Source: Heptranchias perlo (taxonomy: Eukaryota). From it: 64,000 bases of DNA. The notes under the pieces were generated by a model, which was given only the letters and a program-made list of their open reading frames with translations, did not search any database and was not told the origin of the DNA. Shown here piece after piece: positions 6,361-37,239 of this stretch. Location of the stretch: positions 5,952,001 through 6,016,000 of the forward strand of contig NC_090340.1 of assembly GCF_035084215.1 (NCBI RefSeq), read 5' to 3'. How positions within the stretch are numbered: the stretch's first letter is position 1; each line of letters begins with the position of its first letter. Position numbers and translations under genes: made by a program.

Positions 6361-7814
6361 TCAGTCTCCTCTTTGCGCACAATAGACATTTTAAACCGGA
6401 TGAAAGGGGACAATTGCAACCTCGTAACCATCCGATGGAGTTCCTGATTTAGTAATGGGGGGGGGGGCGGATACGGATGGGCAGTTTCTATTGTGACGTC
6501 CAAAATCTCCTTGTGGTTCGATAGGGAATATGGGAATAGTCATGGGAAAATAGGCGGAGAGGGGACGGGGGCTCGGAGTGAAAGAAATATGGGAATAGGA
6601 TGGGGTGCCCTAATTAGAAGGTGCAATTGCTGAAAAATTGAGAAGTAATTACATTTCAAAAAAATAAGAACCAAAAGGAAATAGGGTGGAGTCAACTAAG
6701 GAACTGGAACAATGGCACTGGACACAACTGATGAGATTTACTGATCAAACGATTAAATATACAGTACAGGACCGGCTGTTCAACTACAGATGTAGGACAG
6801 GATATAATATAACAGGAAAATCGTTTAACAATAGAGAAGTCAGTTTTAATTATTTGTATTGTGGGAACGTGTTCTGTGTGATAGAGGCTAACACAAGGTT
6901 TAGATTAGGTCGGTAGAATTACCTAGGGGAATACCAAGTGAGCAGGAGGTGTCAGGATAACGCAATTTAAGAAGCATCACAGGATTCGTGGAAGAATTAC
7001 AGCTAGATTTGTGTCAACATGTCGAGAAACCAGTTTTTAAAGTGTCATGTTTCGAACCATTCAAAATTGTCTTATCGTCTACATGAAATAAACAAATATC
7101 CGAGCGAGAATGGAGTGTATCTGGTGCGACATTACTGCATGGTGTAGTAGCGTATGACAGTTATAGTCACATGACAATAATCTCAGAATTGATACGTTTA
7201 GAGCAAGTCATCTGACATTGTCCATCTCGGGGTTCAAATAGTCTCATTTGCAGAAGTTCGTTGGTATTCTTGGCTGAGTAAACGCCTGGATTGGCTCGTA
7301 CTTCGCAGACCGCGACGGAGATCCTTCTACAGTAATTGTATAGACGTAGAACATTCTTGAACATTCTTTCGATATTAATAAAAGCAACAAGTTAATTTAT
7401 CTCTGGCGTCCAAACCTATTCAATTTGGATTAATCTACTCGGTTAATCTAATAACAGATCCCTTCATAAAACTGCTCATTTCATTGGAAGGATTGCAGGT
7501 AGTATCAGTCACAGTGAGTGACGGGATCCCTCACACCATTAATGATTAGGGACCGGTAACTGGAGTGTGTGGAGTGGATATCAGACCAAAGGGCGCTCCT
7601 CCTCCTCAGTCGGAGTGTTTTCCCTCTTCAGTCCCAGTCACTTCCTCCCCTACTGATGGTATCGTGTTCAGTACAAGTTGACCTGAGTTTTTAAGGACAG
7701 ACTGTCGCTGTTCTGCACACACGGGAACCTGTGAATATTTTTACAGACCGGCTCCGATGAACTGTGAGCGCAGAGATCAGTTCCCATCTCAGAATTGTCC
7801 CTGTTTTCCAGCTA

Positions 7815-9990
7815 AGGGCCCCATCACCCTGTATGATTGATATGGACCCCATCACCCTGCATTATTGATATGGACACCATCACCCTGCATTATTGATATG
7901 GACACCATCACCCTGCATTATTGATATGGGGCCCCATCAACCTGCACTCTTGACATAGGCCACATAACACTACATTCCTTAAATGGGCCACGACACCGTA
8001 CAGTCCTGATATGGGTCGCCATCACTCTGCGTTCCTCATATTGGCCACCATCAACCTACATTCCTTATATTGGCCCCATAACCCTACATTCGTGATATTG
8101 GTCCTATCACCCTACATACAAATGGGGGAAATTATAATGGGGAACAAATAAATGGCAGAACAATTAAACACATACTTTGGTTCTGTCTTCACAAAGGAGG
8201 ACACAAATAACCTCCCGGAAATGTTAGGGAATCAAGGGTCTAGTGAGAGGGAGGAACTGAAGGAAATCAGTAATATTAAAACAAATAGTGCTAGGGAAAT
8301 TAATGGGGCGAAAGGCTGACAAATCCCCAGGGCCTGATAATCTACATCCCAGAGTACTAAAGGAAGTGGCCCTGGAAATAGTGGATGCATTGGTGGTCAT
8401 CTTCCAAAATTCTATAGACTCTGGGACAGTTCCTACAGATTGGAGGGGGGCAAATGTAACCCCACTATTTAAAAAAGGAGGGAGAGACAAAAACAGTGAA
8501 TTACAGACCAGTTAGCCCAACATCAGTAATGGGGAAAATGCTGGCGTCAATTATAAAAGATGTGATAACAGAATACTTGGAAGGCATTAACGGGATTGGA
8601 CAATGTCAGTATGGGTTTATGAAAGAGAAATCATGCTTAACAAATCTACTGGAGCTTTTTGAGGATGTAACTAGTAGAATAGATTGGGGCGAACATGTGG
8701 ATGTGGTGTACTTGGATTTTCAGAAGGCTTTTGATAACGTCCCACACAAGAGGTTAGTGTGCAAAATTAAAGCACGTGGGATTGGGGGGAATATAATTGC
8801 ATGGATTGAGAATTGGTTGACAAACAGGAAGCAGAGAGTAGGAATGAACGGGTCTTTCTCTGGGTGGCAGGCGGTGCCTAGTGGGGTACCGCAGGGATCA
8901 GTGCTTGGGCCCCAGCTATTCACAAAATATATCAATGATATGGATGAGGGAACTGAATGTAACATTTCCAAGTTTGGGGTGCAATGTGAGCTGTGAGGAG
9001 GACGCAAAGAGGCTCCAATGTGACTTGGACAAGTTGGGTGAGTGGGCAAGAACATGGCAGATGCAGTATAACGTGGATAAATGTGAGGTTATCCAATTTG
9101 ATTGTAAAAACAGAAAGGCGGATTATTATCTGAATGGTGATAGATTGGGAAAAGGGGAGGTGCAACGAGACCTGGATGTCCTTGTACACCAGTCGCTGAA
9201 AGTGAACATTCAGGTGCAGCAAGCAGTTTGGAAGGCGAATGGCATGTTGGTGTTCATTTCAAGAGGATTTGAGTACAGGAGCAGGGATGTCTTACTGCAG
9301 TTGTACAGGGCCTTGGTGAGACCACATCTGGAGTAGTGTGTGCAGTTATGTTCTCATTATCTGAGGAAGGATGTCCTTGCCATGGAGGGAGTGCAACGAA
9401 GGTTTACCAGACTGATTCCTGGGATGGCAGGACTGATGTATGAGGAGAGATTGGGTTGACTAGGCCTATATTCACTAGAGTTTAGACGAATGAGAGGTGA
9501 TCTCATCAAAACGCATAAAATTCTAATAGGACTGGATAGATTAGATGCAGGGAGGATGTTCCCGATGGCAGGGGAATCCACAACCAGGGGTCACAGTCTC
9601 AGGATACGGGTAATGCCATTTAGAATCGAGATGAGGAGAAATTTCTTCACTCAGAGGGTGGTGAACCTATGGAATTCTCTAACACATAAGGCAGTGGAGG
9701 CCAAGTCATTAAATATATTGAAGAAGGAGATAGATATATTTCTTAATGCTAAAGGGATCAAGGGATATGGGGAAAAAGAGGGAACAGGGTACTGAGTTAG
9801 ACGATCAGCAATGATCATTTTTATTGGCGGAGCAGGCCCGAAGGGCCGAATGGCCTACTCTTGCTCCTATTTTCTATGATTTTACGATTCGATGACTCCT
9901 GATATGGGCCCCAACACCCTACATTCCTGATAAGGGCCGCATCGCCCTACATTGTTGATATGGCCGCCCACCCTGCATTCCTGATGCTGC
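7815..9990. repeat. About 28-bp degenerate minisatellite (GGGCCCCATCACCCTGCATTATTGATAT-like), split by a CR1 insertion
   Basis: Units at 7815-8118 and again at 9895-9990. Confidence 0.85.
8119..9890 (+). mobile_element. CR1 LINE, 5'-truncated
   Basis: [45 protein letters not shown] and a typical 3'UTR. Confidence 0.95.
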
Positions 9991-10194
9991 TTTGTGAATC
10001 AAACCCTGAACATAAGCGATGTCAGTCGTGTTTTTCGCATGTACTGTGGCACATTCCCATAAAAGTGACCACATTAATTTGGCCTGACCTTCACACAATA
10101 GCTACAAATACAACAACTGGCAGCCTGCTCCGTCAGAGACTGGAAATGGAGACAAAGGAAGAAACACAACATATCGGCGCGTTGGAGAGGGAAC

Positions 10195-10525
10195 TGAACC
10201 ATAATGGCAGGCAGGTCGCAGGTTGTATTTCTGTTTTGCTGATTTGTCTGATCTCAACCGGAACAGCGCCAAGGGTTCTACAATTGGTCTTGGAGTCCCT
10301 GAGATTAGCAAGGACAACGATCAGCCGGCGTCCCTGGTCCTGATTGTGTCTGCTGATAAGCGTATATGGTTCAATATGGGTGAGGTCAGGGTTCGCTCAG
10401 CTGTGATATCTAAAGAGTCCGTGATACAGTGACCCTCTCTGTATATACTCACCCATAAATGACGGCCATTTGGTAAAGTACTCGAGCATTGCCAGCGCCT
10501 GTTTTACCGAACTTCAGCAAGAGGT
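10195..10525 (+). mobile_element. Degenerate SINE-like interspersed repeat (partial second copy at 25245-25345)
   Basis: CCATAATGGCAGG..GCTGAT..GATCTCA.CCGG..CTACAATTGG head resembles a common shark SINE; family not assigned. Confidence 0.5.
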
Positions 10526-11263
10526 AGCAGAAAGCACACACAGATACAAACTTTCTCTCTCACACACACGCACAAACACACACACACACACGCACACACA
10601 CTACACAGTAATGTCTGTTCGACATTATTTAATCTGTTCTTAAACAGAAAAAAGTAAGCACTTTACAAGACTAATTCTTCCTTACAGTTAAATCAGCATA
10701 CAGACACTTCAAACAGAATAAGGTGGCTCCGGGTCCCCTGGTATCTGTCCTGTGGGTGACTGCACAAGTTGGATGACTATATTCAGAAAGGTAAACTATT
10801 GATTCTATAAACTCTGAAATTAGATTGTATCCTGAAAATTTGCACAGTCGTCCAGTAATTCCTCGGTATATGAGAGATGGACGTGTGTGTAAAATACTTA
10901 GCGCAAGATAGTTTGTCTGTAGCACTGAGTGGAAGATGGCTGTGGGTGTGTAACGGTTAGTGAGAGATGGGTGTGTCTGTAACACTGAATGGAAATGGTT
11001 GTGGGTGCACAACAGTTGAATGTGGGCGTGTAACAGGGAGTGACATTTTCACACTCTGATAGTTTTATTTTGTTGCTGTGAATACCTCGATGGATAAGAA
11101 AGTGGAGGAGGAGCAGCCAATGTCTAAGGAAACAATCCGTCCAGACATCTAAAGTCACAAAAGAAGGTTTCGATCTGAGATGGAAAGTCTCCTCATTTTG
11201 CTTTTTTTTCTCAACTATTATATTTCTGCGTCGATGTCCTGACTCAAGAAATGAATGTCTTAC

Positions 11264-11346
11264 CCATAAAATGAGTCTGATTTCAAATGGTCCACAATGA
11301 GGGTGTTCCCCATCAGAATCACCGCTAAACCCAACAGGAAACGACA
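11264..11346 (-). pseudogene. Decayed mirror copy of the TM exon
   Basis: Reads CRFLLGLAVILMGNTLIVDHLKSDSFY then GG|gtaag. Clearly homologous to 23239-23321, but the original acceptor AG is mutated and about 23 bp of the exon 5' end is deleted. Confidence 0.8.
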
Positions 11347-11784
11347 CTGATGGAGCGAGGTGGGGAGCAATAGGATAGAAATTTAAACGAGCATGATGAA
11401 AAAATGCAGAGAGAGAGCGAGTGGTAGACAGAGAGTTAACTGAAGATCATAAATGTGTTGGATACAAGGGCTGTGTGTTTAAAGGTTTATTTCGAAGGAG
11501 CTTCAGTTTCAGTGAGATTAGATCACAGGCATTAACGGACCACCGAAACTGATCTACAAACAAACAGATTCAACACCGTGACCGCTCAGTTCTTTGCTAA
11601 GAGCACCCAGCCTTTCTGCAAATTAAACGCTCCGGAAACCATCAACTAGTCTGAGAACACGTAACGGCATCACCTCTATGCGGTGTCCTGATAGTAAACC
11701 ATTTTAGCCCGTCTATCCCAGAACAACCAATATCCTTATAGCCATCATCACTGATATCACCTCCTGTCTGCCTTTAACGTGTCA

Positions 11785-15330: not shown

Positions 15331-16201
15331 TGCATTCAGTCTGAATTGTTCCAATTTACCGAGGTATCTATGATTTTATGGTGTCCTGGGTGTCCTGACT
15401 ATCTTCTCACCTCCTGACAAACTCTGAATCCAGTCATCAGCGCCAAGAAGTCGAACCTTCGAAAAAGTTAACAAATGGGGACTAAATCTTGAGAACCATT
15501 TTTTATCATTACTGTTTAGACTGAATTTCATAACTTCTATGAATGCGGCTGGTGTCCAGAGAGCCCATCAATTTCAACAACCAAGTTCTGTTGAATGTCA
15601 GGAGTATTTTCTCCAGTCGGTGTGTACCTGCATCGGTACAAAGGGATTCGTGTAATCAAAAATGCAATTTTCTGCCGATTTTCCGCTCCATAACGCCGGG
15701 ATTTTGGGTCAATTGTAGCGAACGATCCAAGCTCAGGTCAGCCAACTCAGAACAGAGTCGGGTTCGAACCTGCGAACTTCAGCTCTGTGTGGTTCAGTGC
15801 TTCACCACGCGATAAATGGGGACGGAGCGAAAGAGCCAGATACAGACCGCATTCACGACACCTGCACATACGTATGTGCAACAGGTTTGTCTGCGATCTG
15901 TTCAGTGAAGAGCTGTTGCAATTAGATACTTTTCACGTAATGCAAAATAGTTCCATTTTCCCGTGGTCACCAATGAGATCTGGGTCATTGTAACTTTCAG
16001 TGTGTTGTCATATCTACGTGCACATATCTGCCATAAAAGTGAACCAGTTCATTGAAGCTATTGCCTCAGATAACTTGTGGAGCGCCTGACTGTAACACTC
16101 AGTCCCAGATTATCTTCACCATCTCTCGATGTCCTGCACCCTTCAGTGTTTCCCGCTGACTTACAGCAAGCAAGTGATCGACTTCATCGCTGTTGCTCAG
16201 A

Positions 16202-16256
16202 ATGTCTATACGTGATGTTTTGCGATACCTCTCAGCTGTGGCCATTATTTGCACAG
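16202..16256 (+). CDS. Exon 1 (signal peptide) of VJ-C1-TM Ig-superfamily receptor
   Basis: ATG at 16202 reads MSIRDVLRYLSAVAIICT then G|gtttat (phase-1 donor, somewhat weak); lies 191 nt upstream of the V exon and splices in frame. Confidence 0.7.
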
Positions 16257-16447
16257 GTTTATTTATGTATACCTATCTGTTAAGTGGGAAAATGTGAATA
16301 AAAAGTCCATTAGCAGTATGGTGGCAGCTTCTGCTCAATGTTTATTGCAATTTTCTCATTTCCTTTCGTTCTACTTCTGTCACATTATTTCCTCCCTTTT
16401 GATCCCCACGATCACTATCCCTGACTATAACCTGTGTTTGTGTTTAG

Positions 16448-16777
16448 TTCTGACAGTTATTAATGGGACCGCTCTCACAGTGACTCAGCTCCCTGCCCGC
16501 CTGACTCCGGTGAAAGGCACAAATGTCTCCATGTATTGCTCTGTGCCCCGCTTCGATCACAACGCAATGGTGGATGTTTACTGGCGGAGATCCGGCCAGG
16601 ACGGGATTTTGGATTCGAGTGCAGACAAAAGGAAAACATTTAAACCATTGAAGAAAGGATCTGCCGAGTTTCACCTGCTGAATGTAGGTTTCCAGGACTC
16701 TGGAATCTATTATTGCAGCATGAGAGATTGGAGAGGAAAGATTTCCAACGGGAATGGGACTGAGCTTATTGTACATG
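16448..16777 (+). CDS. Exon 2: V-set Ig domain with germline-joined J-like strand
   Basis: Acceptor tttag| (an in-frame alternative gacag| gives 16457). Reads LTVTQ..NVSMYC..VYWRR..FHLLNVGFQDSGIYYC..GNGTELIVH; donor G|gtgagt, phase 1. Confidence 0.92.
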
Positions 16778-17284
16778 GTGAGTATCGCTGAGGGTTAATG
16801 AACCTTCGTAAAATTCTATGAGTGTAGATTAGGGAATATTTAACAAAGATCAGCAATGATGCGTTTTCTGACAGGACTTTTGATGTTTCTCTCAGTTCGG
16901 TTCGGTGCGGCTCCTTTCCCCCTATTTGCAGTGAATCCTGTCAGTTTACACAGAGCAGCACCTCTTACCCTGCACGAGGCAGTGGAATTCAGATTGTCTC
17001 ACTTCAGTCAATCGTTGTTCCCTTATCCCCTTTTACCGACATTCCGGAGTCCATGGACTTTTCCCGAGGGCCTGGTGATTCAAACCTGGGATACAAGAGT
17101 GACATTGTCAGTAACTGTTAGTAAATAGATACAAGTATCACACAGAGACAGGGGAATAGGAATGAGGGGAGCAGAGCAAATCCAGGAGCGAACCATGAAA
17201 TAATCAACCGGACAGAGAGGAGTGACAGGGTAACGCTGAATAAAATTGTACTGCATAAAATTCTAGATTGTACGTCCACTAACG

Positions 17285-17510
17285 TTAGATTATATTTACA
17301 CCTATAGATGAATTTACACGCATAGATTTATTTACACTGATTATAAATTTCACTTACACGGATAGATTTATTTACACAGATTATAGAATACAGTTACACT
17401 GAAATGCATTTACACTGATTATAGGTTTCACTTACACGGATAGTTTTATTTACACTGATTATGGAATTCAGTTACACTGATAGATTTATTTATAGTGATT
17501 ATAGATTTTA
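17285..17510. repeat. AT-rich degenerate minisatellite (ATAGATTTATTTACACTGATT-like) in the V-C1 intron
   Basis: About ten 21-22 bp units visible. Confidence 0.8.
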
Positions 17511-18226
17511 CTCCGGGAATGTAATCCTGTAATCATGTAGGACTAGGCTGGACTTCTGATGTCCACTTGAGGCACTTTATCCAAACTGTGGATTTGTTCC
17601 AAATACAATAGAGCTGGTTAGTAAAAAGCTCCACCTTTAAAATTGATAATTTTGAAATCGACACCAGAGGGTAAGAGGCGAGATTATAATTGAGAATCTG
17701 AAGAAGGGAGAATGGGGTTTTCAAACATTGGATAAGGAACATTTCCATAAAATAGATGTAAATCCATACCGCGCGGCCCATGCATGGATCATCTCCTGTC
17801 CCAATTCAGTCTGTGTCTCGAGTAGTATCTCGGCGGGAAAGCCGAGTGTATTTCCCATGGATCCCAGTGTCAGTGTGGGAATCATGTTTGAAATGAGGGA
17901 TGGAGCAGGTGGTTCGGAGGACAAGTTCGTGACACGAGATCACCTAAGGAAAAGGAGTTAACAAACGCGAGTAACCATCTGAGATGAGAGGGGTCTGCAA
18001 TTAAAAGATGGAAATATCTTCCGCTCCCTTTGATGTGGGGGGTGGGGTGTTTACTGGAAAATACCAGTTGCTGGGATGCTGTTTATCATGTAGTTGGATT
18101 GGAATGACCAAAAAAACTAAAGTTCTCACAAGCGGTCTATGGTCTGGGGGTCATTCTCAAAATGTAAAACTCCTCAATTAAAAGAGAGAAGAAAATGTCA
18201 AAGGGAATAAAAAGAGACAAAAGGCA

Positions 18227-18360
18227 GATCTTGACTTTGTGCGATTGTGTAAAACGGTTGATGGCGAGTCGGCCGCCATGGAAATCAAAATGGGGAGAGG
18301 TGTAAAGCGGGCTGCCGATTCGCTATCACCACTTTCAGACTATGGCACAAAGTCAAGATC
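18227..18360. mobile_element. MITE-like palindromic element (relatives near 19471-19616, 20480-20630, 55914-55990, 57410-57491)
   Basis: Perfect 16-bp terminal inverted repeat GATCTTGACTTTGTGC / GCACAAAGTCAAGATC with extended imperfect pairing. Confidence 0.75.
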
Positions 18361-20038
18361 AACCTCAAGAAGCGGGTCTGTGGGAGGATTGGGATGAGCA
18401 ATATCTGATACGGTTACATGCGGTGGACCCTGATCCGTCCCACAGGGGTCTGTACTGGACCAGTAGACCCAGTAGAAATACACTTTAATTCTGATCATTT
18501 ATTATTCAAACAGCCTCCACAGGAGACGAGCCTATTGGGATAATGGAATTCAGAGTGGGGTTGCATTATAATTTTCCCATTAACAAACCGTTGACTAGCC
18601 CACAGCCGAGGAGTCAGTGTCAGTGTGAGTGTTCCTTTAGAGAAAGACCATTAATTCTAAGGAGAAAATGCAAAGCGAATTCAGTGACATGATCCGAGGG
18701 ATGAGAGAAGATGATTATCCACTGATCTGTTTAGGAGAAACAATGGGTCATAAAATTAGAATCAGATCTAGAAACAGAAAGGTGAAGGGAGAAGATTCAT
18801 CTTCACTCCACGGTTGATTAGAGTATGGAATTGATCGGCGCACGAGGCTACCGAAGAGAATCAAAGACAAGGTTTCGGGGAGAATTCGACCAACAGTTGA
18901 AGAAAAATGCATGGAGAAAGGCAAGGGAAAGGATTGGGGTAGGGGGCTGGGAGCTGGACTGTGGCGGCCCGGGCACGTTGCCTCCAACTGTGCTTAACTT
19001 TCTATGAATTCACTCGAAAACAAGGAGGATAAACGAGACAGGCAATCCGAGCGAGGCGGGGCTTCGGGGGTACCCAGCTTATCCCGATCAAGATATGGGT
19101 TAAACATAGGCCATTTCACAGGGTCAGATTTCTGCCCACAATCCCGCCCCTCAAGGCTCCCAGTCGGGAGCGCAGTCTCCCTGAATTGACTTGTTCCCAA
19201 AGATGTCATTGAAACGGATCTCTGTTAGAGCAGAATCGCCGCCTTATCCGTCATATTTGTGAGCTGGTTATTTTGATATGATTTGGCCGCCACATCGATC
19301 TGCACATTGTACCTGAACAAGAGCGAAGTGTTGAAGTCATTCATGCAGATCGACTGCCGGCGTCAGGACCTGATTATCTCGGAAATGAACCGAGTGGGTG
19401 AGCTCTGGTATCGGACAGCCTCACCGCTGTTAGACACTGACAACAATTCCAAGACTGGAACGGAGACAATGGGTGATAGCGAATCGGCAGCCTGTTTTAC
19501 ATCTCTTCCGATTTTTATTTGCATTGAAGTCAGTGGAATGAAAAATCGGGAAATTTAAACGGGAAGTGGATTCGCTATCACCCGTTTTACACAATCACAC
19601 GGTCAAAATCTACTCCAATTACTTTTCGTATTGTTCGATTCAGTTAACACGCAGTCTGTGAACCTATATTAGTGAAGGTAATGTCTCCCTGTTAGTGACT
19701 CTGAAACCTATTTAAAACCGAATGTGTAAGTCACAGTGAATCACCTGCAGAAATAGGCACGGGTTCTGTTCAACTTGGACATTAACTTTCAATGCCCAGA
19801 CATGGGGGCCTTCCCGTTGACCGAGTCCTGGATCAAGACAAGAACGAATTAAATATCACTATTCACTGTTTTGATCAAAACAGCCGTTCGTTATGCATTC
19901 TAATATGGCGGTGTAATTTCCCTCTAAAAGGGACTCTGCAGATGCTCCATGCTCTCCCTTCTCGCCCTCTGTTCTTTCCTTTCTCTAATATAATATACGA
20001 GTAGTGATTTCAACTCAATTCCTTTAACTCCTTTCCAG

Positions 20039-20320
20039 TGCCGCCAACTCCTGTGAAGATTACCCGCCTGCTCTCTCCGTCTCTCACACTCCTCTGTACA
20101 ACGGCTGCTTTTTTCCCCGAGGAGTTTAACCTCACTTGGTATCAAAATGGCTCCGAAATTAAATCTGGGATAAACACGGTGCAGACACGGAGCGAAGAGG
20201 GATTGTATCAAGTTTTCAGCTCCCTCATCTCTGTGCAGAGTGGGACGGTTTATATCTGCCGGGTGTCCCATGCCTCTCTCCCGGCTCCAGCTGACGACAG
20301 CTACACGGTTCGTGATCCGG
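20039..20320 (+). CDS. Exon 3: C1-set Ig constant domain
   Basis: Polypyrimidine tract plus ttccag| acceptor. Reads PPTPVKI..LTLLCTTAAFFPEEFNLTWYQNG..GLYQVFSSL..YICRVSHASL (CxxxxFFP, W, YxCxVxH); donor G|gtaag, phase 1. Confidence 0.92.
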
Positions 20321-22611
20321 GTAAGAGACCCACATTCTCAGCACTGGAATAAACTGTATCTGTGTTACATATAGGAGCCATTCAGGGACTTTCTGTCACC
20401 ACTAATCCACGCCTGAACATTCTCAATGCAGTCAGTGTGTATGGGGTGACTGTGCTCATTGCAATTTCAAAAAGCTTTCGATCTTGACTTTGGAGATATG
20501 TAACCGACGTCTGAATCCATATCGCCCCATTTATACTATCACCCAAGGTCAAAATTAGCCCCGGTCAGTCTGCCGAAAATCGGGTATAACAGGCGGCAGA
20601 TGCGCTACCGCCCAAAATTGAATTTGACCCCATTATCTCCTCTGTACTTTCCTGCTCAAAGCCTGGTCTGGCTCTCCACCCGACCATTGCTACAGCCGGC
20701 CCCTGGCGAGCCCTCGTTCCGCTGCTCATAGCCCTAGTCTAGCTGTCCATTAACCCTTCCCCCTTCGGGCATCTGTCTGGTCTCCACCTCTCGTGGCTAG
20801 TGGCCTGCACTTTCTCTCTGCCCCCATTTCCTCACTGCCCTCTCTCCCTACCCATTCCTCTCCACTTCCTCCCCAGTTCATCTTAATGCCCTCTTGGTCC
20901 CGTCAAATATCACCTGCTTCCCTTTCTAAGCCGCCCCCCACCCCCGCACACACACACTCCTTCTCCTCCTCCTCCGCATCTCTTCTCTCTCTCCTCGGCC
21001 CAACATCTTCCATCCATTATTCCCACCCTTCATTCCGGTAGTCTATCCCAGTTCTACCTCCCCTCTTCCCACTCCGCCGTCCCCTTTGGCTTCCTCTGGA
21101 CTCCATGGTCGCCGCCTTCCCTCACCTCGGCCCAGTTACCACCTGCTATATATTTCAGTTCAACGGAGGACTACATTTAGTTTTCACTCCCCCTGTGAAA
21201 CACCAGGAGATTGCGACTAGTACTAATATAGTGGGTAGCATTTCCACGGGTCTCCCGATATTCGGCGGAAGATCCGCAAAACCCTGGAGATAGGGCGTGA
21301 GCAGCTTTAATTATATCGCTCAGAATCAATAAGCATTTATTTGTTATGTAAAAAGAAACTTAAAAATGTATGGCGTACAGAATAACTGAACAATATCTTG
21401 GTCGAATCATTTCCTGCTAAAAACCTTACTTCACCCGAAGTGCGGGATTTGGGGGGGTGGGGGGGACTTTGAGGGGTTTCTTCCCATTGACGTTGGATCA
21501 GCGAAACAGCAGTTCGGTAACTCGAGAAAAAAAGGCATAAATGCCGTTTACTCCCTTTCCAGTGTTTCTGAAGCGTTTCCGCTAAAGTTACGGCGAACTT
21601 ACGGGAGAAGCTCGCGTGGAAATTCACCCCCTCGGTCTTTACTTCATCGCGCAAAGCCATCGGATATTATCCACTAATATTATATCAATAACGATCCGTC
21701 CTGGGACCAAAGGCCCGAAATCACTGTTGACGATACCATCAGTCAAAAGCTAAACGCCTTTACATCATGTTTTGGCCGCTAGTTAGTGGGAGTGTTCATC
21801 CGTTTATAATAAACCCCTCAACAGCTGTATTAAAACAGTGAGGAACATCGGACAGACACAATGAGACATCGGAATTGTCTATATTTATATATTCACCAAT
21901 AGTAACGTTGAAGCAAAACATGTCCAGTGACAGAAGAGAGAAGTTGAAATAAGTTTCAAGAAATAAGAATATTATTTGGCTGATACATGATCAGAAGGTT
22001 CATGATTGGCATCCGAATTGTTTTCTGCTCAGCTCACTGTGGTACAATCCCTCGTGTGAAGTAATGAAGAAAGCAAAATATGTTCAGACATCAATAAAAT
22101 CGACTCCAGAATGCAAGTAATAAAAATCAACAAATGAAATTTTCCGTTGAAGCAAATATCAGACACACTGGCCCAGAAAATAAATACCCTGCACCGGGTA
22201 CAGTCCACCCGGATTGTCACGACAGCACTGACTCTAAGGTTTCAGAGCGTGCGAGCAGGTATGGAGATCGTCAGTCCCAATATTCAGGACTAAATCAATC
22301 ATAGCGCCGTCATAAATTGGATCAATTCCAACTGAATGGACAGCAGGCAGACAGGAAGTGATGTCAGTGGAGTGATGTAGCGAAAACTAGTTGTTGACCC
22401 CGCTCTCCGACAGTGTAATCTGCAGAGGGGATGGGGGCTCAGAGAGAAGACCCGAGAAGTCACTTGTGCTGCGGACATTAAAGCTGTTTGTCTGTACATC
22501 GATTTCAGTGTTTGGTATATGCCTGTGATATAATCTCACTGGGGCTCAGGTACTGCAGTAAATCCTCAAAAACACAGTCCTTGAAACGAACACACCCACT
22601 GTCATCAGTGA

Positions 22612-23150
22612 GCACTCTCTCTCTCTCCCTCTCCCTCTTTCTCTCTCTGCTTCGCTNNNNNNNNNNNNNNNNNNNNNNNNNNNNNNNNNNNNNNNNNNNN
22701 NNNNNNNNNNNNNNNNNNNNNNNNNNNNNNNNNNNNNNNNNNNNNNNNNNNNNNNNNNNNNNNNNNNNNNNNNNNNNNNNNNNNNNNNNNNNNNNNNNNN
22801 NNNNNNNNNNNNNNNNNNNNNNNNNNCTTTTTGCATCTCAGTCGCTCTCTCTCTCTCTCATTCTCTATGTATGTATATATATATATACATGTCTCTCTAC
22901 CCGTGTCTGTCTCTTTGTCTCTATCTATCTATTATCCCTGTCCCTCTCACTGTCCATCTCTCTCTCTCTGACTGTCTGTCGCTCTCTGTCTGTTTCTATT
23001 TATCTATTTCTCCCTCTCTCTCTCTCTCTGTCTGTCCGTCTGTGTGTCTGACTCTATCTATCCATTTTCCCTCTCTCTCTGTTAATCTATTTATCTCTCT
23101 CTCTCTCTATCTATTTATCTATTTCTCCCTCTCGGTCTCTTTCTTTTTAA
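22612..23150. repeat. CT-rich simple repeat containing a 170-N assembly gap (22657-22826)
   Basis: Directly visible. Confidence 0.95.
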
Positions 23151-23206
23151 CTCTACTGTTTTTTCACTAAACTCCTTTAATTGTCCTTTCTGTATCTGCC
23201 CACCAG

Positions 23207-23319
23207 CCTCCACAGACCGATTCCCAACCTTGAACTTCTGCCGTTTCCTGTTGGGGTTAATGGTGATTCTACTGGGAACCACCATCATTGTCGACCATTT
23301 GAAATCAGTCCCCTTTTAA
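23207..23319 (+). CDS. Exon 4: stalk, Arg-containing transmembrane helix and short tail, ending in stop
   Basis: Acceptor ccag|, phase 1, reads ASTDRFPTLNFCRFLLGLMVILLGTTIIVDHLKSVPF*. The four exons total 780 nt = 259 aa plus stop with no frameshift. Confidence 0.8.
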
Positions 23320-23539
23320 AGGTAAGATATTGATTTCTTGATTCAGATAATTTCCGTGGAATTATAGTAATCAAACACAGGAAACAAAATAATAGAATCC
23401 TTATTTTGCGACTTTAGATGTCTGGGTCGATTGTTTGCCTGGACATTGGCTGCCATTCATTCATCTTCACTTTCTTATCTATCCGAGTGTTCACAGCAAG
23501 AAAGGTAAACCATTTTACAGGGTGTAAAAGTGCCACTCA

Positions 23540-25022
23540 GAGTTATACATACACCCATCTCTCACTCACTCTTACTTTACACCGCCATCTCTCACTCATT
23601 ATTACTTCACACACACATATTTCACTCACTGTTACTTACACAACCATCGCTCACTCACTGCTACTCACATAGATCCCTCGCTCAATTGGTACTCACACAC
23701 CTATCTCTCATTCACTGTTACTCGCACACCCATTACTCACTAAATTGTTGCTCACACATCAATCTCTCACTCACACACATCTACATAAGAACATAAGAAA
23801 TCGGAGCAGGTGTAGGCCATACGGCCCCTCGAGCCTGCTCCATCATTCAATCAAATCATGGCTGATCTTCGACCTCAACTCCACTTTCCCGCCCAATCCC
23901 CATATCCATTGATTCCCCTAGAGTCCAGAAATCTATCCATCTCAGCCTTCAATGACTCAGCATCCACAGCCTTCTGGGGTAAAGAATTCCAAAGATTCAC
24001 AACCCTCTGAGTGAAGAAATTCCTCCTCATCTCAATCTTGGATGGCTGCCCCTTTATCCTGCGACAATGCCCCATCATAATCATACACGCATCTCGTACT
24101 CACTGTTACTCACATACCCTTCTCTCACTCTCTGTGACTCACACACTCATCTCTCAATCACTGCTACTCACACAGGCATCTCTCACTCACTGTTACTCAC
24201 ACAGACATCTATCTCTGACAGTTACTCACACGTCCATTTCTCACTCAGTGTTACTCACACATCTATCTCTCACTCACACACCCATTTCTCACTCATTGTT
24301 ACTCACACACATCTCTCACCCACTGTTAATCACACACATCTCTCACTCAGTTGTTACTCACACACCCATTGCTCACTCACTGTTACTCACTAACCGATCT
24401 CTCACTCACTGTTACTTGCAGACACATCCCTCACTCACCGTCACACACCCATTGCTCACTCACTGTTACTCACTAACCGATCTCTCACTCACTGTTACTT
24501 GCAGACACATCCCTCACTCACCGTCACACACCAATTGCTCACTCACTGTTACACACATCTCTCACTCACTGTTACACACACACATCTCTCACTCAATTGT
24601 TACTCATACACATTTCTCACTCAATTTTACTCACACACCCAATGCCCACTCACTGTTACTCACCAAACTATCTGTCATTCACACACCCATCTCTCACTCA
24701 CCGTTACTCACACATCCATTGCTCACTCACTGTTACTCATACACCTATCTCTCACTCACTGTTAATTTACAAAGATATATCTCATTCACTGTTACTTTGC
24801 ACACACATTTTGCACTCACTGTTACTCATACAACCATCACTCACTCACTGGAACTCATATACATTTCTCACTCAATTCTTACTCACACCCTATCTCCCAG
24901 TTACACATTCATCTCTCACTCACTGTCACTCGCACACCCATCTCTCACTCATTGTTACTCACACAGGCATCTCTCTCTCACTGTTACAAACACAGTCACC
25001 TTTCACTGGCAGTTACACACAC
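23540..25022. repeat. Degenerate ~30-bp tandem array (CACCCATCTCTCACTCACTGTTACTCACA-like)
   Basis: Directly visible; source of the His/Thr/Ser/Leu-rich spurious ORFs. Confidence 0.92.
23784..24075 (-). mobile_element. CR1 3' fragment inserted in the tandem array
   Basis: CATAAGAACATAAGAA tail; RRNFFTQRVVNLWNSLPQKAV. Confidence 0.92.
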
Positions 25023-27096
25023 ACCCAGGAAACTCAAAATATATTAGCTCCTCGTTCTATCCAATGCAGAAATGGGCGTGTGAGTAACAGTGAGTGAGAG
25101 ATGGATGTGTGAGTAACAGTGAGTGAGAGTTTGGTGTGTGAGAACCAAGAGCCTGCTGCACCAGAGGCTGGAAATGGAGATAATGGAGCAAGAGTCCTGA
25201 AGCAGAGGAATAGACCTGTATTTCAGCAGGGCGCTGTTTGTACTGCACCATAATGGCAGGGAGGTCCCAGGTTGCATTGCTGGTCTGCTGATTTAGCTGA
25301 TCTCAGCCGGGGCAGTGTCAATTCGACTTGATGTCCCTGGGCTATTGAAGGACAGCGGTTTGCAAACGTTTCCAGCCTCTGGTGCAGCAGGCTCTTGGTT
25401 CTCGTATTTGGAGCTGTTGTATCAAGTTCAGACCCATTCAATGTGATCACTTCTTGAGGGATTATCACATTGCATGAGGGGGATAATCACACATCATATG
25501 GCGCCTCTTTTGTAACCCCGGCTTAATTCACAAAGCAATATCCTGGCACCGTGAGTCTCGGTAGAAGATCAATTAAAACTAACCGGTGATTCTGATCTCG
25601 GATTTGGTGCTCACTTTGTTTCAGCATCAACTGTTTCCGGTTCATTCTGAAATCAACTTTCTTTTTAACAGCAACACACCTGATGACAAACTGGCAGCAG
25701 CTGCTCCTGATTTCACCGACTCCAGGAAAGCATCGAATTAATGTCAATGAATCAATGCAGGGTCTGAGCTGACGGGGATTATAAAGTGGAAAGTCGATTT
25801 GAAGGGGTTCATTCTGCATTGGATAGAACGAGGAGCCAATATATTTGGAGTTTCCTGGGTAAAAGGCGCCGTTCACCCATTTGTAATTGTCTAACACACG
25901 ATCCGTGCCATTAATGGGGCAGAAAGTCAGTTTGAGGATAATCAAATCCTTCAATGTGATGGGTAGGTTAGAGTAAAGATTTTCCCGCGCCCAGAATCCA
26001 CCGGAAATCATCATAAATGAATTGTGCCAGCTTCGCGTCAGTTTCAATTGTTTTCCTCGATTTCGAGGCAGTTTCTTTGACAAAATGTAAATTATCCGTT
26101 ATTGGAGGCTGAGTAATTTCTGTTCCTACATTTGTTGAATATGAGAATGGTTTATATCAGGAATAAATGGTGCTGGGGGGCCCATGTCAGGAATGCAGAG
26201 TATTGGAGGCGTTCGGCAATGAACGTGTCTCTGCTTCTCAATATCAAACTATTTGCCCTGTATTCAAGCGCTATTTCTAAACATGGGCCCCGAACCCTGA
26301 CAGTCATTGACAGGCCTTTAAAGACTGTAACACGTGAGCGTTCGCTGCCGGTAATAAAAGGGATTAAATGAACACAGCAAATTACACTTTTATTTTCTCT
26401 TACTTTTAATTCAGGAAAAAACTGTTTTAACAAATCCCCGCATCAGACGAATAGCAATAAAATTAATGCTCATCGAAATATTAACAATACGGGGGGAATG
26501 TGAGCATGCGATGACAGCAGAATGATTCTGAGAGCATGGACAGGAGTGGAGTCCCTGCCCAGATACAGTGAGGGGCTGGAGAAATAAAGTGAGCACTGGA
26601 ATTGAACTGGCTCTGTCAGCGTGGATATACACATTTCCTGGGATAGAACTACCCGAGTTCGGCCCCACTCACATCATCAGCTGGGGACTAGTACACAGAG
26701 AACATTCTCAGTCTCCAAATGTGTGAACGGTTTTTACACTGGGAGCAATCGTGGACTGTGTTAAACAGGGACAGTTACCAAATTGGAACTGATCTCTGCG
26801 CTCACAGTTAATCGGAGGTGCTCTACATAAATATTCATAGGATCCCGTGTGTGCAGGGCATCGACACTCTGCCCTTGTAAAGTCAGCTGAACTTGGACTG
26901 AACACGGTATGATCAGTGGGGGAGAGGTCACTGTGATTGAAGAGGGAAAACACTAAGATTGAGGAGTCGAGCCGCCCTTTAGACTGATATTTACTCCACA
27001 CACTCCAGTTACCGTCCTCTAATCATTAATGGACTCATGAGTCTCGTCACTCAGGAGTTTCTGACTGATGCTTCCTGTTACCCATCTAACGAATAG

Positions 27097-28611
27097 CACA
27101 TTGCGGATGCCCTAATTATAATCTTTCAAAGTTCTCTAGATTCAAGAACTGTCCCTCTAAATAGGAAAATTGCAAAGATAACTCCGCTTTTTAAGAAGGG
27201 AGAGAGAGGGAAACCAGGGAATTATCGACCAGTTAGCCTAACATCTGTTGTGGGGAAAATGCTGGAGTCCATAATTAACGATAGGGTGACTGAACACCTC
27301 GAGAATTTTCAGTTAATCAGAGAGAGCCAGCATGGATTTGTGAAAGGTAGGTCGTGCCTGACAAACCTGATTGAATTTTTTGAAGAGTTGACTAAATTAG
27401 TGGACAGGGGAATGTCAATGGATGTTATTTATATGCACTTCCAGAAGGCATTTGACAAGGTCCCACATAAGAGACTGTTAGCTAAGATAGAAGCCCATGG
27501 AATCGAGGGAAAAGCACGGACTTGGTTAGGAAGTTGGCTGAGCGAAAGGAGACAGAGAGTAGGGATAATAGGGAGGGACTCACATTGGCAGGAAGTGACT
27601 AGTGGAGTCCCGCAGGGATCTGTCTTGGGGCCTCAATTATTCACAATATTTATTAACGACTTAGATGAAGGCATAGAAAGTCTCATATCTAAGTTTGCCG
27701 ATGACAGAAAGATTGGTGGCACTGTAAGCAGTGTAGATGAAAACATAAAATTACAAAGCGATATTGATAGATTAGGTGAATGGGCAAAACTGTGGCAAAT
27801 GGAATTCAATGTCGACAAATGTGAGGTCATCCACTTTGGATCAAAAAAGGATAGAACAGAGTACTTTCGTAATGGTAAAATGTTAAAAACAGTGGCTGTC
27901 CACAGGGACTTAGGGGTTCAGGTTCATAGATCATTGAAGTGTCATGAACAGGTGCAGAAAATAATCAATAAGGCGAACGGAATGCTGGCCTTTATATCTG
28001 GAGGAATAGAGTACAAGGGGGCAGAAGTTATGCTGCAGCTATACAAAACCCTGGTGAGACCGCACCTGGAGTATTGTGAGCAGTTCTGGGCACCACAACT
28101 TCGGAAGGACATATTGGCCTTGGAGGGAGTGCAGCGTAGGTTTATTAGAATGATACCCGGACTTCAAGGGTTAAGTTTCGAGGAGAGATTACACAAATTG
28201 GGGTTGTATTATCTGGAGTTTCGAAGGTTAAGGGGTGATCTGATCGAAGTTTATAAGATATTAAGGGGAACAGATAGGGTGGATAGAGAGAAACTATTTC
28301 CGCTGGTTGGGGATTCTAGGAGTAAGGGGCACAGTCTAAAAATTAGAGCCAGACCTTTCAGGAGCGAGATTAGAAAACATTTCTACACACAAAGGGTTGT
28401 AGAAGTTTGGAACTCTCTTCCGCAAACGGCAATTGATACCAGCTCAATTGCTAAATTTAAATCTGCGATAGATCGCTTTTTGTCAACCAAAGGTATTAAG
28501 GGATATGGGCCAAAGGCAGGTACATGGAGTTCGATTATAGATCAGCCATGATCTTATCAAATGGCGGAGCAGGCACGAGGGGCAGAATGGCCGACTCAGG
28601 TTCCTATATTC
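27097..28611 (+). mobile_element. Young 5'-truncated CR1 with open RT frame and 7-bp TSD CGAATAG
   Basis: 433-aa uninterrupted RT C-terminal ORF; CGAATAG at 27090-27096 and 28612-28618; the empty site is seen in the left arm near 7470-7490. Confidence 0.96.
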
Positions 28612-28934
28612 CGAATAGAGCAGTTTTATTAAGGGACTTGGAACTTCACAGCCGGTCCTGCGTTGTACCTTAAACCGTTTGATCAATTGAAGCTAATCAT
28701 TTGTATGCAGTTACATTGGCCCAGGGACTTATTTCCGTGTTTCCATTGAAAGTTTCTTTGCTTCCCAATTTTCCGCTGATATTTCCTTTAACGAAGACAT
28801 CTGCCCTCCCTTTTCTTCGCTCGTAGTCACTGCCCGTTCCCTATCTGGTCGCCCGTGACCGATTGCCATGTCCCATTCAGCTATAAAGGATCTCCATCCC
28901 ACAATTCCCAATTTTATATCAGGAAATAAACCAG

Positions 28935-29170
28935 CAACAGCAATTTGCATTTATATAGCGCCTTTAACGTAGTAAAACCTCCCAAAGAGCTTCACGGAAA
29001 CGTTATCAGGCAAAACTGATACCGGACCACATCAAGAGATATTAGCATATATGGACACAAGCTTGGTCAAAGAGCGACTTAAAGGAGGAGAGAGAGGTCG
29101 AGAGGCGGAGCGTTTCAGGGGGATATTCCAAAGCTGAGGGCCGAGGCAGCTGAAGGCACGGCTACCGAAA
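28935..29170 (-). mobile_element. L2 3' tail fragment
   Basis: TTGCATTTATATAGCGCCTTTAACGTAGTAAAAC tail. Confidence 0.85.
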
Positions 29171-30197
29171 GGACTTCAATAAATGCAAATAGCTGCTTGG
29201 TAACATGCCCATTAATAAATAATAAACGTAAATAAACTAAAAATTAATCTCTGCGGTCAAAGGTCACCGACTGTGCGTTCTGGTTCTTTTCTCTTTGATG
29301 TATAATTTTCTTTTTTTGCAATCAATGTGTGTTTGTACAGGTATTTTTCACCGGGCACTACTGTGTGATGTAATTCCGGGTCTTCAGTGAGCCATTCCCT
29401 CTTCCAATGATCTCCACACACTCTCATGCTTCCTACAATAGAAATCTGCACCCTTGTGTTTGTCTGACTCCCTGGAGACCCAGTACCCCTGGGACTAACA
29501 CAATCCTCGGTTGTTTTTACCAAGGAAGGTAAATGGAGTTCAGATACAATCAGTCATGATCTAATTGAATGGTGCAAGATGCTCGAGGAGCTGAATGGCC
29601 TCCTCCTCTTCCCATGTTCCGATGCCTCCTACATTTTTTCTCTCCAAAATATTTAAGGTGGGCTCAGATTCTGAATTAAATACTGGATTGATTTACAAAC
29701 ATTCAGTCAGCAGGAAACATGCAGAAAACCTTAAGATTGTATACAACGACAAAAGTCGGCCTTTTAAAGCTGCTTTCTGCTTTTGACAGCAGTGAGTGTG
29801 GGAAGTCTTTTGACCACAGTTTATAAAAAGCCCCCGCACTCACTTTCAGTTCATTTCAACAAAGACCACTTTGGTTTCCATGCTTTTGCGCTTCAGTAGT
29901 TCCCTCTCTCTTGTCTCTGCGATTAAATGCATAAATGTTTAATGTAGTCTTTGAATTGCCTGGAATGCATTGCAGATTCAGGTTGACATGGAATAATCCA
30001 TGTTGATGTTGCAAGCATGAGTGTATGTGGCCAGCTCCGACCACTTCCTTGTATTCAACACCATCCACATCCCCCTATACCCGTCAAACTCAAATTACCC
30101 CCAACGATTACACTTACACCCTTCTCTTCCATATCTACAAGATGTCCGTTGGCAACACCATCCACTGACATGAGGACAGCTTCCACGTGGACGCTGA

Positions 30198-31790
30198 CAA
30201 CAACAAAAAATTGCATTTATATGGCGCCTTTAACACGGTAAAACGTCCCAAGGCGCTTCAAATGAGCGGTATCAAACAAAATTTGACACTGAACCACATA
30301 AGGAGGTATTAGATCAGGAGACCAAAGCTTGGTCAAACAGATAGGATTTAAGGAGCATCTTCAAGGAGGAGAGAAAGGTAGAGTGGGGAGAGCTTTAGGG
30401 AGGGAATTCCAGATTTTAGGACCGAGGCAGTTGAATTGCTGCCAATTGTGGAGCGATGAAAAACGGAGATGTGCAAGAGGCCAGAATTGGAGGAGTGCAG
30501 AGATCTCGGAGGGTTGTAGGGCTGGAGGAGGTTACAGAGATAGGGAGGGGCAAGGCCATGAAAGGATTTGAAAATGAGAATTTTGAAATCGAGGTGTTCC
30601 CAGACGGGGAAACAATGCAGGTCAGCGAGCTAAGGCTGATGAGTGAACGGGGCTTGGGGTGAGTTAGAATATGGACAGCAGAGTTTTGGATCAGTTCAAG
30701 TCTATGGAGGGTGCAAGGTCGGAAGCCAGCCAGGAAATCATTGAAATCGTCGAGTCTGGAGGTGACAAACAAGAACAACAACAACTTGCATTTATATAGC
30801 GACCTTAAATTAGTAAAACGTCTAAAGGTTCTTTAGGAGGCTTATCAAACAAACATTGACACTGAGCCACGTAAGGATATATTAGGACAGGTGACCAAAA
30901 GCTTGGTCAAAGGGGTAGGTTTTAAGGAGCTTCTTAAAGGAGGGAGAGAGACAGAGAGTTGATGAAGTTTAGGCAGGGAATTCCAGAGCTTAGGCATGGA
31001 TGAGCGTTTCAGCAGCAGATGAAATGAGGCAGGGGCAGAGACCGGTCACATTATGGAGGTGGAAGTAGGTGGTCTTGGTGGTGGAGAGGGTATCGGGTCA
31101 GAAGCTCAGTTGAGGATGAAATAGGACGCCAAGTTGTGAACAGGTCGGTTCAGCCTCAAGTAGTGGAGAGGGAAAGGGATCGAGTTGGTGGCTAAGGAAT
31201 GGAGTTTGTAGCAGGGACGTCTTCTCAATATTTAATTGGTGGAAGTTTCTGCTGATCCAGTACTGGACGTCGGTCAAGCAGTGTGACAAATCAGAGGCAG
31301 TGGAAGAGTCAAGAGAGGTGGTGGTGAGGTAGAGCTGGGTGTCCTCAATTTACATGTTTCTGGATACTGCCAGCAAGGGGCAGCATGTAGATTAGAAATA
31401 GGAGGGGGCCAAGGATAGATCGTTGGGAGACACCAGAGGTAATGGTGCGGGAACGGGAAGAGAAGTCATTGCAGGTGATTCTCTGGCTACGACTGGATAG
31501 ATAGGAATGGAACCAGGCGAGCGCAGTCCCACCCAGCTGGACAATGGAGGAGAGGCATTGGACAAAGATGGTGCGGTCAACCATGTCAAAGGCCGCAAAC
31601 AGTTCGAGGAGGATGAGGAGGGATAGTTTACCACGGTCACAGCCACAAAGTACTTCATTTGACTTTGATAAGGGCTGTTTCACTTTTGTGGCAGGGCGTA
31701 AACCTGATTGGAGGGATTTAAACATAATTTTGTGGGAAAGATGGGCATGGATTTGGGAGGTGATAATACGTTTAAGGACTTTTGAGGGGA
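30198..31790 (-). mobile_element. L2 LINE with a second L2 3' fragment nested at about 30769-30993
   Basis: SLQSGLRP, LELFAAFDMVD, LELIQNSAVHIL; two L2 tails at 30198 and 30770. Confidence 0.88.
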
Positions 31791-32081
31791 AATGGACGAT
31801 TCCCAACTCTGCTTGTCCACCCAGTCTCTCCCGCCCTCCACTGCCAGTATGATGTAATATTGCTTGTTCCCAACATCCAGTCTAAGATGAGACGTAATTT
31901 CCTTGAACTAAAGACCAATGCACATTTTGCGCTACTGGCACAGATTAATTTGACCTCAGTCTCCTCCAACCTGAGACTATCACAGTACGATCACTTAGTG
32001 ATATTGGTCTTGGGTCCTAACACAAATGGGTGATCGGAAATTTGCAGACCATTTTACATGCAACCATATTTTGTTTCCCAT

Positions 32082-36810: not shown

Positions 36811-37239
36811 TACTATGAAGACATGGAAGAATATTTTTCGCACAACGGTAGACAAAACGTCAATGCTGGACAACAATTATAAAGATTGTGAATGTATTCC
36901 CGGAAAATATTTAACGTGTTAGCCTTTTCCTTATCTTTACTCCGAAGATCTTGCTACAAATTAAAATACAAGAATAACTTGTGGTAAAATTTCAGAATGG
37001 AACTTGAGAAGTTTGGAATGACTCTCTTCGTTCCAGTGTCCGCAGCCGGGGAGCGGATGTGGAGATGTTGCATCAACAGGTACAAATTGTGTGGCGCCTT
37101 TCAGCTACCTTCTACACGGAGTGTCATTTTTAAAAACACTGATACAGGAAAATGCAAAAAATAAAATAGTTCTCTATTTCCCGAGATAGAAGCTCTCATT
37201 GATCAGCGACTTGAACAGAAGTAAATTCTATTTGCTTTT

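What the first reader, a model, noticed from the sequence alone, without database searches (positions are those of the whole stretch)
16202..23319. Intact non-rearranging antigen-receptor-like gene: germline-joined VJ + C1 + TM-arginine (activating type)
Seen: four exons with GT-AG phase-1 junctions splice into an open 259-aa protein. The V exon ends in GNGTELIV (GxGTxLxV, the J-segment signature) inside the same exon, with no RSS, followed by a C1 domain and the TM segment LNFCRFLLGLMVILLGTTIIV with an 8-aa tail. Established: V(J)+C1+TM is the layout of a rearranged TCR chain; NKp30 has a similar germline GNGT J-like strand; an N-terminal TM Arg (as in NKp46, GPVI, LILRA) recruits FcR-gamma/CD3-zeta. 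Inference: this is an NK-like activating receptor of the non-rearranging VJ-C1 class discussed as resembling the pre-RAG ancestor of antigen receptors.
Basis: partly seen in the sequence, partly recalled or inferred. Interest (0 to 1): 0.8.

Follow-up and report, generated by a model that had tools for sequence, protein, structure and literature searches.

The report
Shark activating paired immune receptor
This spliced shark gene encodes a never-rearranged, antibody-chain-shaped surface protein whose recognition domain is almost identical to that of a neighbouring gene with 'off-switch' motifs, so it is likely the 'on-switch' half of an innate receptor pair rather than a close relative of the ancestor of antibodies.

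Summary
In detail: four GT-AG phase-1 exons give the 259-aa RefSeq protein P0001 (sevengill shark, auto-named MHC-like), all three junctions appear in probable RNA contigs of one sample, and no RSS lies nearby. The gene is not alone. It ends a cluster of about 90 VJ-C1 genes on contig C18; of 55 intact genes examined, 36 have an uncharged membrane anchor (ITIM tails where read) and 15 an activating-type anchor, 14 with an Arg at one fixed position, also seen in six other sharks and rays. Its V exon matches an ITIM-tailed neighbour at 327/330 bases while its promoter and introns follow another activating gene: V-exon gene conversion, the mark of paired receptors, repeated in bamboo shark and devil ray. 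The anchor's NxxR motif is the known FcR-gamma-binding type. The ancestor reading is weak: no F/W before GxG, a short V domain, V and C1 outside Ig/TCR/UrIg in best trees (AU tests cannot exclude deep kinship), and no MHC gene found on C18. Ligand, cell type and adaptor are untested. The scan found this family before elsewhere in this genome.

The parts
16202..16256 (+). Exon 1 coding part: split leader (18 codons + 1 nt); transcript begins upstream (contig from 16090)
   Evidence: X1 record 1, 0 differences over 16090-16254 and 16446-16777
16448..16777 (+). Exon 2: rest of leader and compact VJ-type domain (Cys49-Cys108, 59 apart; G-strand NGNGTELIV); alternative acceptor at 16457
16430..17030 (+). 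Approximate gene-conversion tract shared with the ITIM-tailed gene at G000:C18:5904687 (bounds inferred from informative sites)
   Evidence: V exon 327/330 to that gene against 311/330 to activating paralogue 4014491; upstream 65 of 72 informative sites follow the activating paralogue, in the exon 17 of 18 follow the inhibitory gene (Fisher p 6e-12)
20039..20320 (+). Exon 3: single C1-set domain (Cys148-Cys202)
23207..23321 (+). Exon 4: short stalk, TM with NxxR (Asn229/Arg232 region, N-F-C-R), 8-aa tail, stop at 23317-23319, donor GT at 23322
25070..25600 (+). Probable non-coding exon 5 (3' UTR); end not determined, first poly(A) signal at 25572
   Evidence: inferred (joint 23321>25071, contigs of 795-892 nt)
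11269..11358 (-). Decayed inverted copy of an activating-type TM exon without V or C1; part of an old inverted duplication (68-79% identity) flanking the gene

Best explanation
The gene is a spliced, non-rearranging VJ-C1 membrane receptor that likely signals activation through an ITAM adaptor (FcR-gamma type) and is likely paired with the ITIM-tailed neighbour whose V domain it shares almost letter for letter. Shown: exon layout, splicing, short tail, conserved TM Arg, a large family with two anchor types, and a mosaic gene in which the V exon follows the inhibitory neighbour while promoter, most introns and TM exon follow the activating lineage. Inferred: both receptors bind the same ligand through the V domain; the inhibitory one would recruit SHP-type phosphatases via its ITIM, this one would pair its Arg with the adaptor's Asp; conversion (probably inhibitory to activating) keeps the activating receptor as a decoy against pathogens that exploit the inhibitory one, as argued for CEACAM pairs. 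Ligand, cell type and adaptor are unknown.
For: Family: 94 V hits at E<=0.001, 93 on C18 (lower bound). Census of 71 loci: 55 with stop-free V and C1; 36 uncharged TM, 15 activating-type, 4 with no TM in the fetched stretch. Arg exactly 18 residues before a conserved (D/N/E)H in 14 of those 15 and in 6 of 6 activating-type proteins of other sharks and rays. 29 of 36 family proteins over 300 aa carry an ITIM in their last 100 aa. Partner 5904687 has open TM and tail exons with LTYASL and three further Tyr motifs; the joint between its last two tail exons is in X2-X4 contigs, which may also come from paralogues. Conversion; further near-identical pairs 5843651/5771767 (V 296/297 nt), 14836494/15437459 (303/306), 4014512/5936480 (299/306). 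Across species the activating V is closest to a same-species inhibitory-type V (99, 91, 96%) and only 43-59% to activating V of other species; one clade of activating V domains is rejected, p-AU 1e-4. NxxR TMs associate with FcR-gamma in Xenopus XFL transfection (PMC2413239 passages). A zeta-family TM exon is in the genome.
Against: No functional test. The Pfam zeta-family search gave one clear hit (zeta-like by recall) and one decayed one; a separate FcR-gamma gene was not seen (lower bound). Only 4 of 15 activating anchors have full NxxR, one has Gln for Arg; only 8 of 15 have an inhibitory gene as closest V. pN/pS among close V exons is mixed (0.15-5.5, few sites), so pathogen-driven selection is not shown. 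RNA evidence is one sample, contigs only, tissue unknown. The 3.5-4.0 and 4.3-4.9 Mb blocks are near 100% identical and could be an assembly duplicate, which would lower gene counts. One of the 55 (4829883) has a frameshifted V stretch.
Confidence: 0.8

Rival explanations
1. The family is a surviving close relative of the two-domain VJ-C1 gene that the RAG transposon invaded.
For: Layout equals the posited two-domain precursor (PMC12227049 Fig. 2 legend); split leader; whole-ectodomain model matches Ig light chains best in Foldseek (TM 0.34-0.39); AU tests do not reject family + AgR/UrIg for V (p 0.27), family + TCR/IgL V (p 0.089) or family + IgL/TCR C1 (p 0.13); present in chimaera, sharks and rays.
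Against: Best trees place SIRP, not this family, next to AgR V (98/90) and exclude the family from the Ig/TCR/UrIg C1 clade (98/87). Cys-Cys spacing 54-59 against 69-73 in TCR/IgL V; no C'/C'' strands in the model. [FW]GxG in only 2 of 55 genes. No MHC I, II or proteasome hit on C18. UrIg/UrIg2-like genes exist elsewhere in this genome and are the published candidates.
Confidence: 0.1
2. The family is the cartilaginous-fish branch of the SIRP family (V + C1, ITIM and charged-TM forms), with one C1 lost or not yet duplicated.
For: Many members are auto-named SIRP-like; SIRPs are among the profile's non-shark hits; ITIM tails resemble SIRP-alpha's; Atlas feature hit 'SIRBL' 0.96; AU p 0.29; no clearer SIRP V orthologue found in the genome (best E 4.5e-5).
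Against: SIRP V and C1 form their own clades apart from the family in best trees; one C1 instead of two; N-terminal Arg instead of the central Lys seen in SIRP-beta P0190; family V profile scores SIRP V at 19-25 bits against 40-61 for the best domains of reptile multi-V receptors and 54.5 for coelacanth P0154.
Confidence: 0.2
3. A germline-joined or processed IgL/TCR gene.
For: V+C1 layout; germline-joined IgL genes exist in this genome (L108, L109).
Against: TM exon with Arg; ITIM-tailed paralogues; about 20-25% identity to Ig/TCR structures; IgL and TCR loci lie on other contigs; outside AgR clades in best trees.
Confidence: 0.02
4. An inversion switch: flipping the leader-V-C1 block between inverted TM exons would swap anchor types.
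For: Inverted activating-type TM exons lie 5-13 kb upstream of seven V exons of this subfamily; colinear inverted homology flanks the gene.
Against: Arms are only 68-79% alike; the inverted exons are decayed (window copy lacks a proper acceptor; three of four others read have His for Arg). Simpler: remains of an old head-to-head partner gene that lost V and C1.
Confidence: 0.03

Closest known systems
SIRP family (SIRP-alpha / SIRP-beta)
   Same: Single-exon VJ-like domain plus C1; paired ITIM and charged-TM forms with near-identical V (bat P0162/P0190)
   Different: One C1, not two; N-terminal NxxR Arg, not central Lys; about 90 genes; separate clades in best trees, kinship not excluded
LRC-type activating receptors (LILRA2, PIR-A, NKp46, GPVI, OSCAR, Fc-alpha-R) and Xenopus XFL TM1
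   Same: NxxR motif at the start of the TM, short tail, paired with ITIM forms (PMC2413239 passages)
   Different: Their ectodomains are C2-type; this one is VJ + C1
NITR (ray-finned fish)
   Same: J-like motif in the V exon, large clusters, ITIM and charged-TM forms (bioRxiv 2021.06.11.448072 passages)
   Different: Second domain is C1, not I; NITR sequences were not in my trees
PRARP / tetrapod VJ-C1 genes
   Same: Non-rearranging VJ-C1 membrane proteins (named in PMC10751288 and PMC11599192; architecture recalled from Fu et al. 2019, not read)
   Different: Recalled as a gene pair, not a large paired family; orthology not tested
NKp30 (NCR3)
   Same: Single-exon VJ with a GxGT strand and charged TM; fold among top Foldseek matches
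   Different: NKp30 has no C1; this genome has its own NKp30-like genes on C42 (E 5e-11 to NKp30) with Lys anchors
UrIg / UrIg2
   Same: Elasmobranch non-rearranging VJ-C1 genes with split leader (PMC12227049)
   Different: Three or more C1 domains, MHC- or AgR-complex-linked, inside the AgR clades in my trees; no paired ITIM/Arg forms reported in the parts read
CEACAM paired receptors
   Same: Ligand-binding domains of opposite-signal pairs matched by gene conversion (PMC5112662 abstract)
   Different: Unrelated ectodomain layout; activating CEACAMs carry their own ITAM-like motif

Membership tests
Rearranging or germline-joined Ig/TCR | RSS flanking V or J | tested here: not met
Rearranging or germline-joined Ig/TCR | J motif [FW]GxG | tested here: not met
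   NGNG here; 2 of 55 family genes have it
Rearranging or germline-joined Ig/TCR | Full V domain with C'/C'' (Cys-Cys about 69-73) | tested here: not met
   59; no such strands in model
Rearranging or germline-joined Ig/TCR | Phylogenetic placement with Ig/TCR | tested here: inconclusive
   outside in best trees; AU p 0.089 and 0.13
UrIg/UrIg2 | VJ followed by three or more C1 domains | tested here: not met
   one C1; spliced C1>TM joint
UrIg/UrIg2 | Linkage to MHC or AgR complex | tested here: inconclusive
   no class I, II or proteasome hit on C18, but class I/II are on unplaced scaffolds
NCR3/NKp30 | Single V domain, no C1 | tested here: not met
   C1 exon spliced in; a V>TM skip form exists in X1
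NCR3/NKp30 | V orthology to NKp30 | tested here: inconclusive
   NKp30 not among the 60 shown of 61 hits for this V while L110 hits it at 5e-11; AU p 0.30
SIRP | V-C1-C1 ectodomain | tested here: not met
   one C1
SIRP | Paired ITIM and charged-TM forms | tested here: met
SIRP | V/C1 orthology | tested here: inconclusive
   separate clades; AU p 0.29
SIRP | CD47 binding | not testable with these tools
   needs binding assay
NITR | V plus I domain | tested here: not met
   second domain C1-set 48.3 bits, I-set 13.5
NITR | V orthology | not tested
PRARP | Non-rearranging VJ-C1 membrane protein | tested here: met
   architecture only; PRARP definition partly recalled
PRARP | Orthology and synteny | not tested
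   no PRARP sequence or paper text available (not held)
Paired activating receptor (functional class) | Short tail and charged TM residue | tested here: met
Paired activating receptor (functional class) | Inhibitory sibling with near-identical ligand domain | tested here: met
Paired activating receptor (functional class) | Adaptor association and signalling | not testable with these tools
   complex prediction unavailable; needs transfection

The most novel reading that the evidence does not exclude
An undescribed, roughly 90-gene VJ-C1 paired-receptor lineage older than the shark/bony-fish split (weakly joined by coelacanth VJ-C1 proteins and reptile multi-V ITIM receptors) that couples an antigen-receptor-shaped ectodomain to an LRC-type NxxR anchor, and that descends from the same two-domain VJ-C1 gene as Ig/TCR: a living innate version of the pre-RAG receptor.
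Probability: 0.15. Interest if true: 0.85.

Novelty: new variant of a known kind. Interest (0 to 1): 0.5.

Why it matters
Cartilaginous fish are the oldest lineage with Ig, TCR and MHC, and I found no description of a large paired VJ-C1 receptor family in them (searches below; key subscription papers unread). The family gives concrete candidates for shark NK or myeloid self/non-self sensing. Independent V matching of on/off pairs in sevengill shark, bamboo shark and devil ray makes the pathogen-decoy model testable at the base of jawed vertebrates, and one amino-acid difference separates this pair's V domains. The principle itself is known from mammals and frogs, and RefSeq already holds the gene under a misleading name.

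Tried and rejected
PDB search with the family V profile was swamped by multi-domain I-set proteins. Fold searches tie NCAM I-set, CD79b, VNAR and TCR V (Z 14.2-15.0, rmsd 1.5-2.1, 92-99 aligned; Foldseek) and do not pick a family; SIRP was not among the rows listed. Four deep AU tests on V and one on C1 were all inconclusive (about 100 columns). Pfam scan of 132 of 142 window ORFs of 85 aa or more found only LINE-type domains and repeat artefacts. No run on record as RNA was listed; the four laid are guessed RNA. Literature: nine answered searches (less general ones) showed no paper on this family; Ohta 2019, Dornburg and Yoder 2022 and Flajnik 2023 were not held; no supplements were read. Look-ups by sequence and relatives in earlier findings were blank. 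Left out of the census: most V hits in the near-identical 4.28-4.86 and 14.98-15.12 Mb blocks; seven further loci were read but not counted.
Full report
Observation. The 23207 acceptor gives the 259-aa protein that NCBI holds as P0001 from Heptranchias perlo under the automatic name 'H-2 class I histocompatibility antigen, alpha chain-like'. Pfam confirms V-set and C1-set. No RSS lies in the gene. Contigs from one sample, guessed to be RNA, carry all three joints. X1 record 1 matches the 5' end and V exon with no difference and X3 record 17 matches the C1 end and TM exon with none, so this copy, not only a paralogue, is represented; the V>C1 joint with this gene's own letters rests on one contig with a 29-letter short side.

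Family. The V exon finds 94 matches in the genome, 93 on C18, in clusters at 2.70-5.97 and 14.5-15.6 Mb plus one at 19.0 Mb; most have a C1 exon downstream. The window gene is the last of the first cluster. I fetched 10-kb stretches and classed 71 loci: 55 with stop-free V and C1, of which 36 have an uncharged TM, 15 an activating-type TM and 4 none within reach. One of the 55 has a frameshifted V stretch, and blocks at 3.5-4.0 and 4.3-4.9 Mb are near-identical, so counts may be inflated. Relatives occur in sharks, rays and chimaera under names such as SIRP-like, tapasin-related-like and NCR3LG1-like.

Anchor. In 14 of the 15 activating-type genes, and in 6 of 6 such proteins from other species, an Arg sits exactly 18 residues before a conserved (D/N/E)H (one ray protein ends NY). 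Here the context is N-F-C-R. [quoted passage not shown] Adaptor binding here is therefore inferred, not shown; the genome search gave one zeta-family TM exon and one decayed hit.

Pairing. The V exon is 327/330 nt identical to that of the gene 64 kb upstream (C18:5904687), one amino acid apart, but 311/330 to activating paralogue 4014491; yet the 5' flank is 151/152 to the activating gene and 94/131 to the neighbour, and introns around C1 are 96-97.5% against 86-87%. Informative sites switch from 65 of 72 'activating' upstream to 17 of 18 'inhibitory' in the exon (p 6e-12). The neighbour has an uncharged TM and open tail exons with an ITIM (LTYASL) and three more Tyr motifs. The start of intron 2 is inhibitory-like, which suggests transfer from inhibitory to activating gene (inference). 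Three more pairs have 98-99.7% V identity. In bamboo shark and devil ray the activating V also sits with a same-species inhibitory-type V (P0013 is a partial model without tail); a single clade of activating V domains is rejected, p-AU 1e-4. PMC5112662 (abstract) reports the same pattern for Xenopus CEACAM pairs and reads it as a response to pathogens. Against: only 8 of 15 activating genes have an inhibitory gene as nearest V, and pN/pS is uninformative.

Kinship. The V domain is compact: Cys-Cys 59, against 69-73 in this genome's TCR and IgL V, 69-70 in NKp30-like and 60-66 in SIRP; the model (pLDDT 88) has no C'/C'' strands and ties with NCAM, CD79b, VNAR and TCR V. In the V tree (69 rows, 112 columns) the family is one clade (93/97) outside a SIRP+AgR+UrIg clade (98/90), weakly beside reptile multi-V ITIM receptors and coelacanth P0193. 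In the C1 tree (68 rows) it is one clade (98/87) beside coelacanth P0193 and P0154, outside Ig/TCR/UrIg (98/87). Outgroup labels for own-genome rows are mostly recalled from sequence features; NCR3-like is backed. AU tests reject none of the deep alternatives, so origin is open. PMC11599192 (passages) lists CD79, NITR, SIRP, CD8, NKp30 and PRARP as joined-VJ genes, so a J-like strand alone says little. PMC12227049 (abstract, introduction, most results) names UrIg2 as the candidate precursor relative. MHC class I and II hits lie on unplaced scaffolds, NKp30-like genes and an Ig-like three-C1 group on C42, none on C18; linkage is not shown and not strictly excluded.

Literature and earlier notes. 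Searches returned no description of this family; I also saw passages of PMC10751288, PMC6795676, PMC8455134 and bioRxiv 2021.06.11.448072, and listings only. Several key subscription papers were not held. After forming my reading I found four earlier scan reports on other members of the same family in this genome that reach the same view; they are not independent evidence.

Verdict. A real, expressed, activating-type member of an apparently undescribed cartilaginous-fish paired receptor family; works like SIRP-beta/LILRA-type receptors (inferred), is a member of none of the tested families by defining architecture, and is only weakly a candidate relic of the antigen-receptor ancestor. Interest 0.5; new variant of a known kind.

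Noticed in passing
window 41490-41600 (-) and 37200-38300 (-): Orphan uncharged-TM exon and tail exons of an inhibitory-type family gene, with a 24-nt repeat array in a Tyr-motif exon; no V or C1 exon found for it in the window.
   Followed up: partly
window 4936-11628 versus 22413-31800: Colinear inverted homology of 68-79% around the gene, including a decayed TM exon; similar inverted TM exons precede six other V exons of this subfamily.
   Followed up: partly
L114 (G000:C47:3427055-3427767, -): Single-exon VJ with a canonical FGNGT J motif and a C1 exon about 80 nt away; groups with Ig/TCR in both trees. A better antigen-receptor-like non-rearranging candidate than the gene studied.
   Followed up: partly
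L163 (G000:C11:48.14 Mb) and L115 (G000:C11:54.37 Mb): Two more single-exon VJ + C1 genes on the contig that carries the zeta-like gene; L115 has an EIPPP loop like CD28H. Possibly PRARP-related (guess).
   Followed up: no
L155 (G000:C14:59.91 Mb), L131 (C42:3.89 Mb), L160/P0076 (C1841): Three UrIg-like loci rather than two; the C14 V groups with P0076 V (100/99).
   Followed up: no
L105-L107 (G000:C8:1.2-1.9 Mb): Cluster of single-exon VJ genes that fall in the antigen-receptor clade of the V tree.
   Followed up: no
L110, L132, L133, L121 (G000:C42:5.83-6.50 Mb): NKp30-like genes; candidate TM exons of two carry Lys rather than Arg.
   Followed up: partly
P0141, P0071, P0093, P0095, P0166, P0174: Reptile receptors with 3-6 compact VJ domains and Tyr-motif tails, auto-named pIgR-like or titin-like; weakly nearest to this family's V.
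   Followed up: partly
G000:C18:3.49-4.02 versus 4.28-4.86 Mb; 14.68-14.79 versus 14.98-15.12 Mb: Near-identical duplicated blocks: very recent duplication or assembly duplicate.
   Followed up: no
window 1-3400, 8400-9900, 27100-28600, 35100-36500, 38600-41400: LINE-type retrotransposon remains (RT, endonuclease, GDSL-type ORF1).
   Followed up: no
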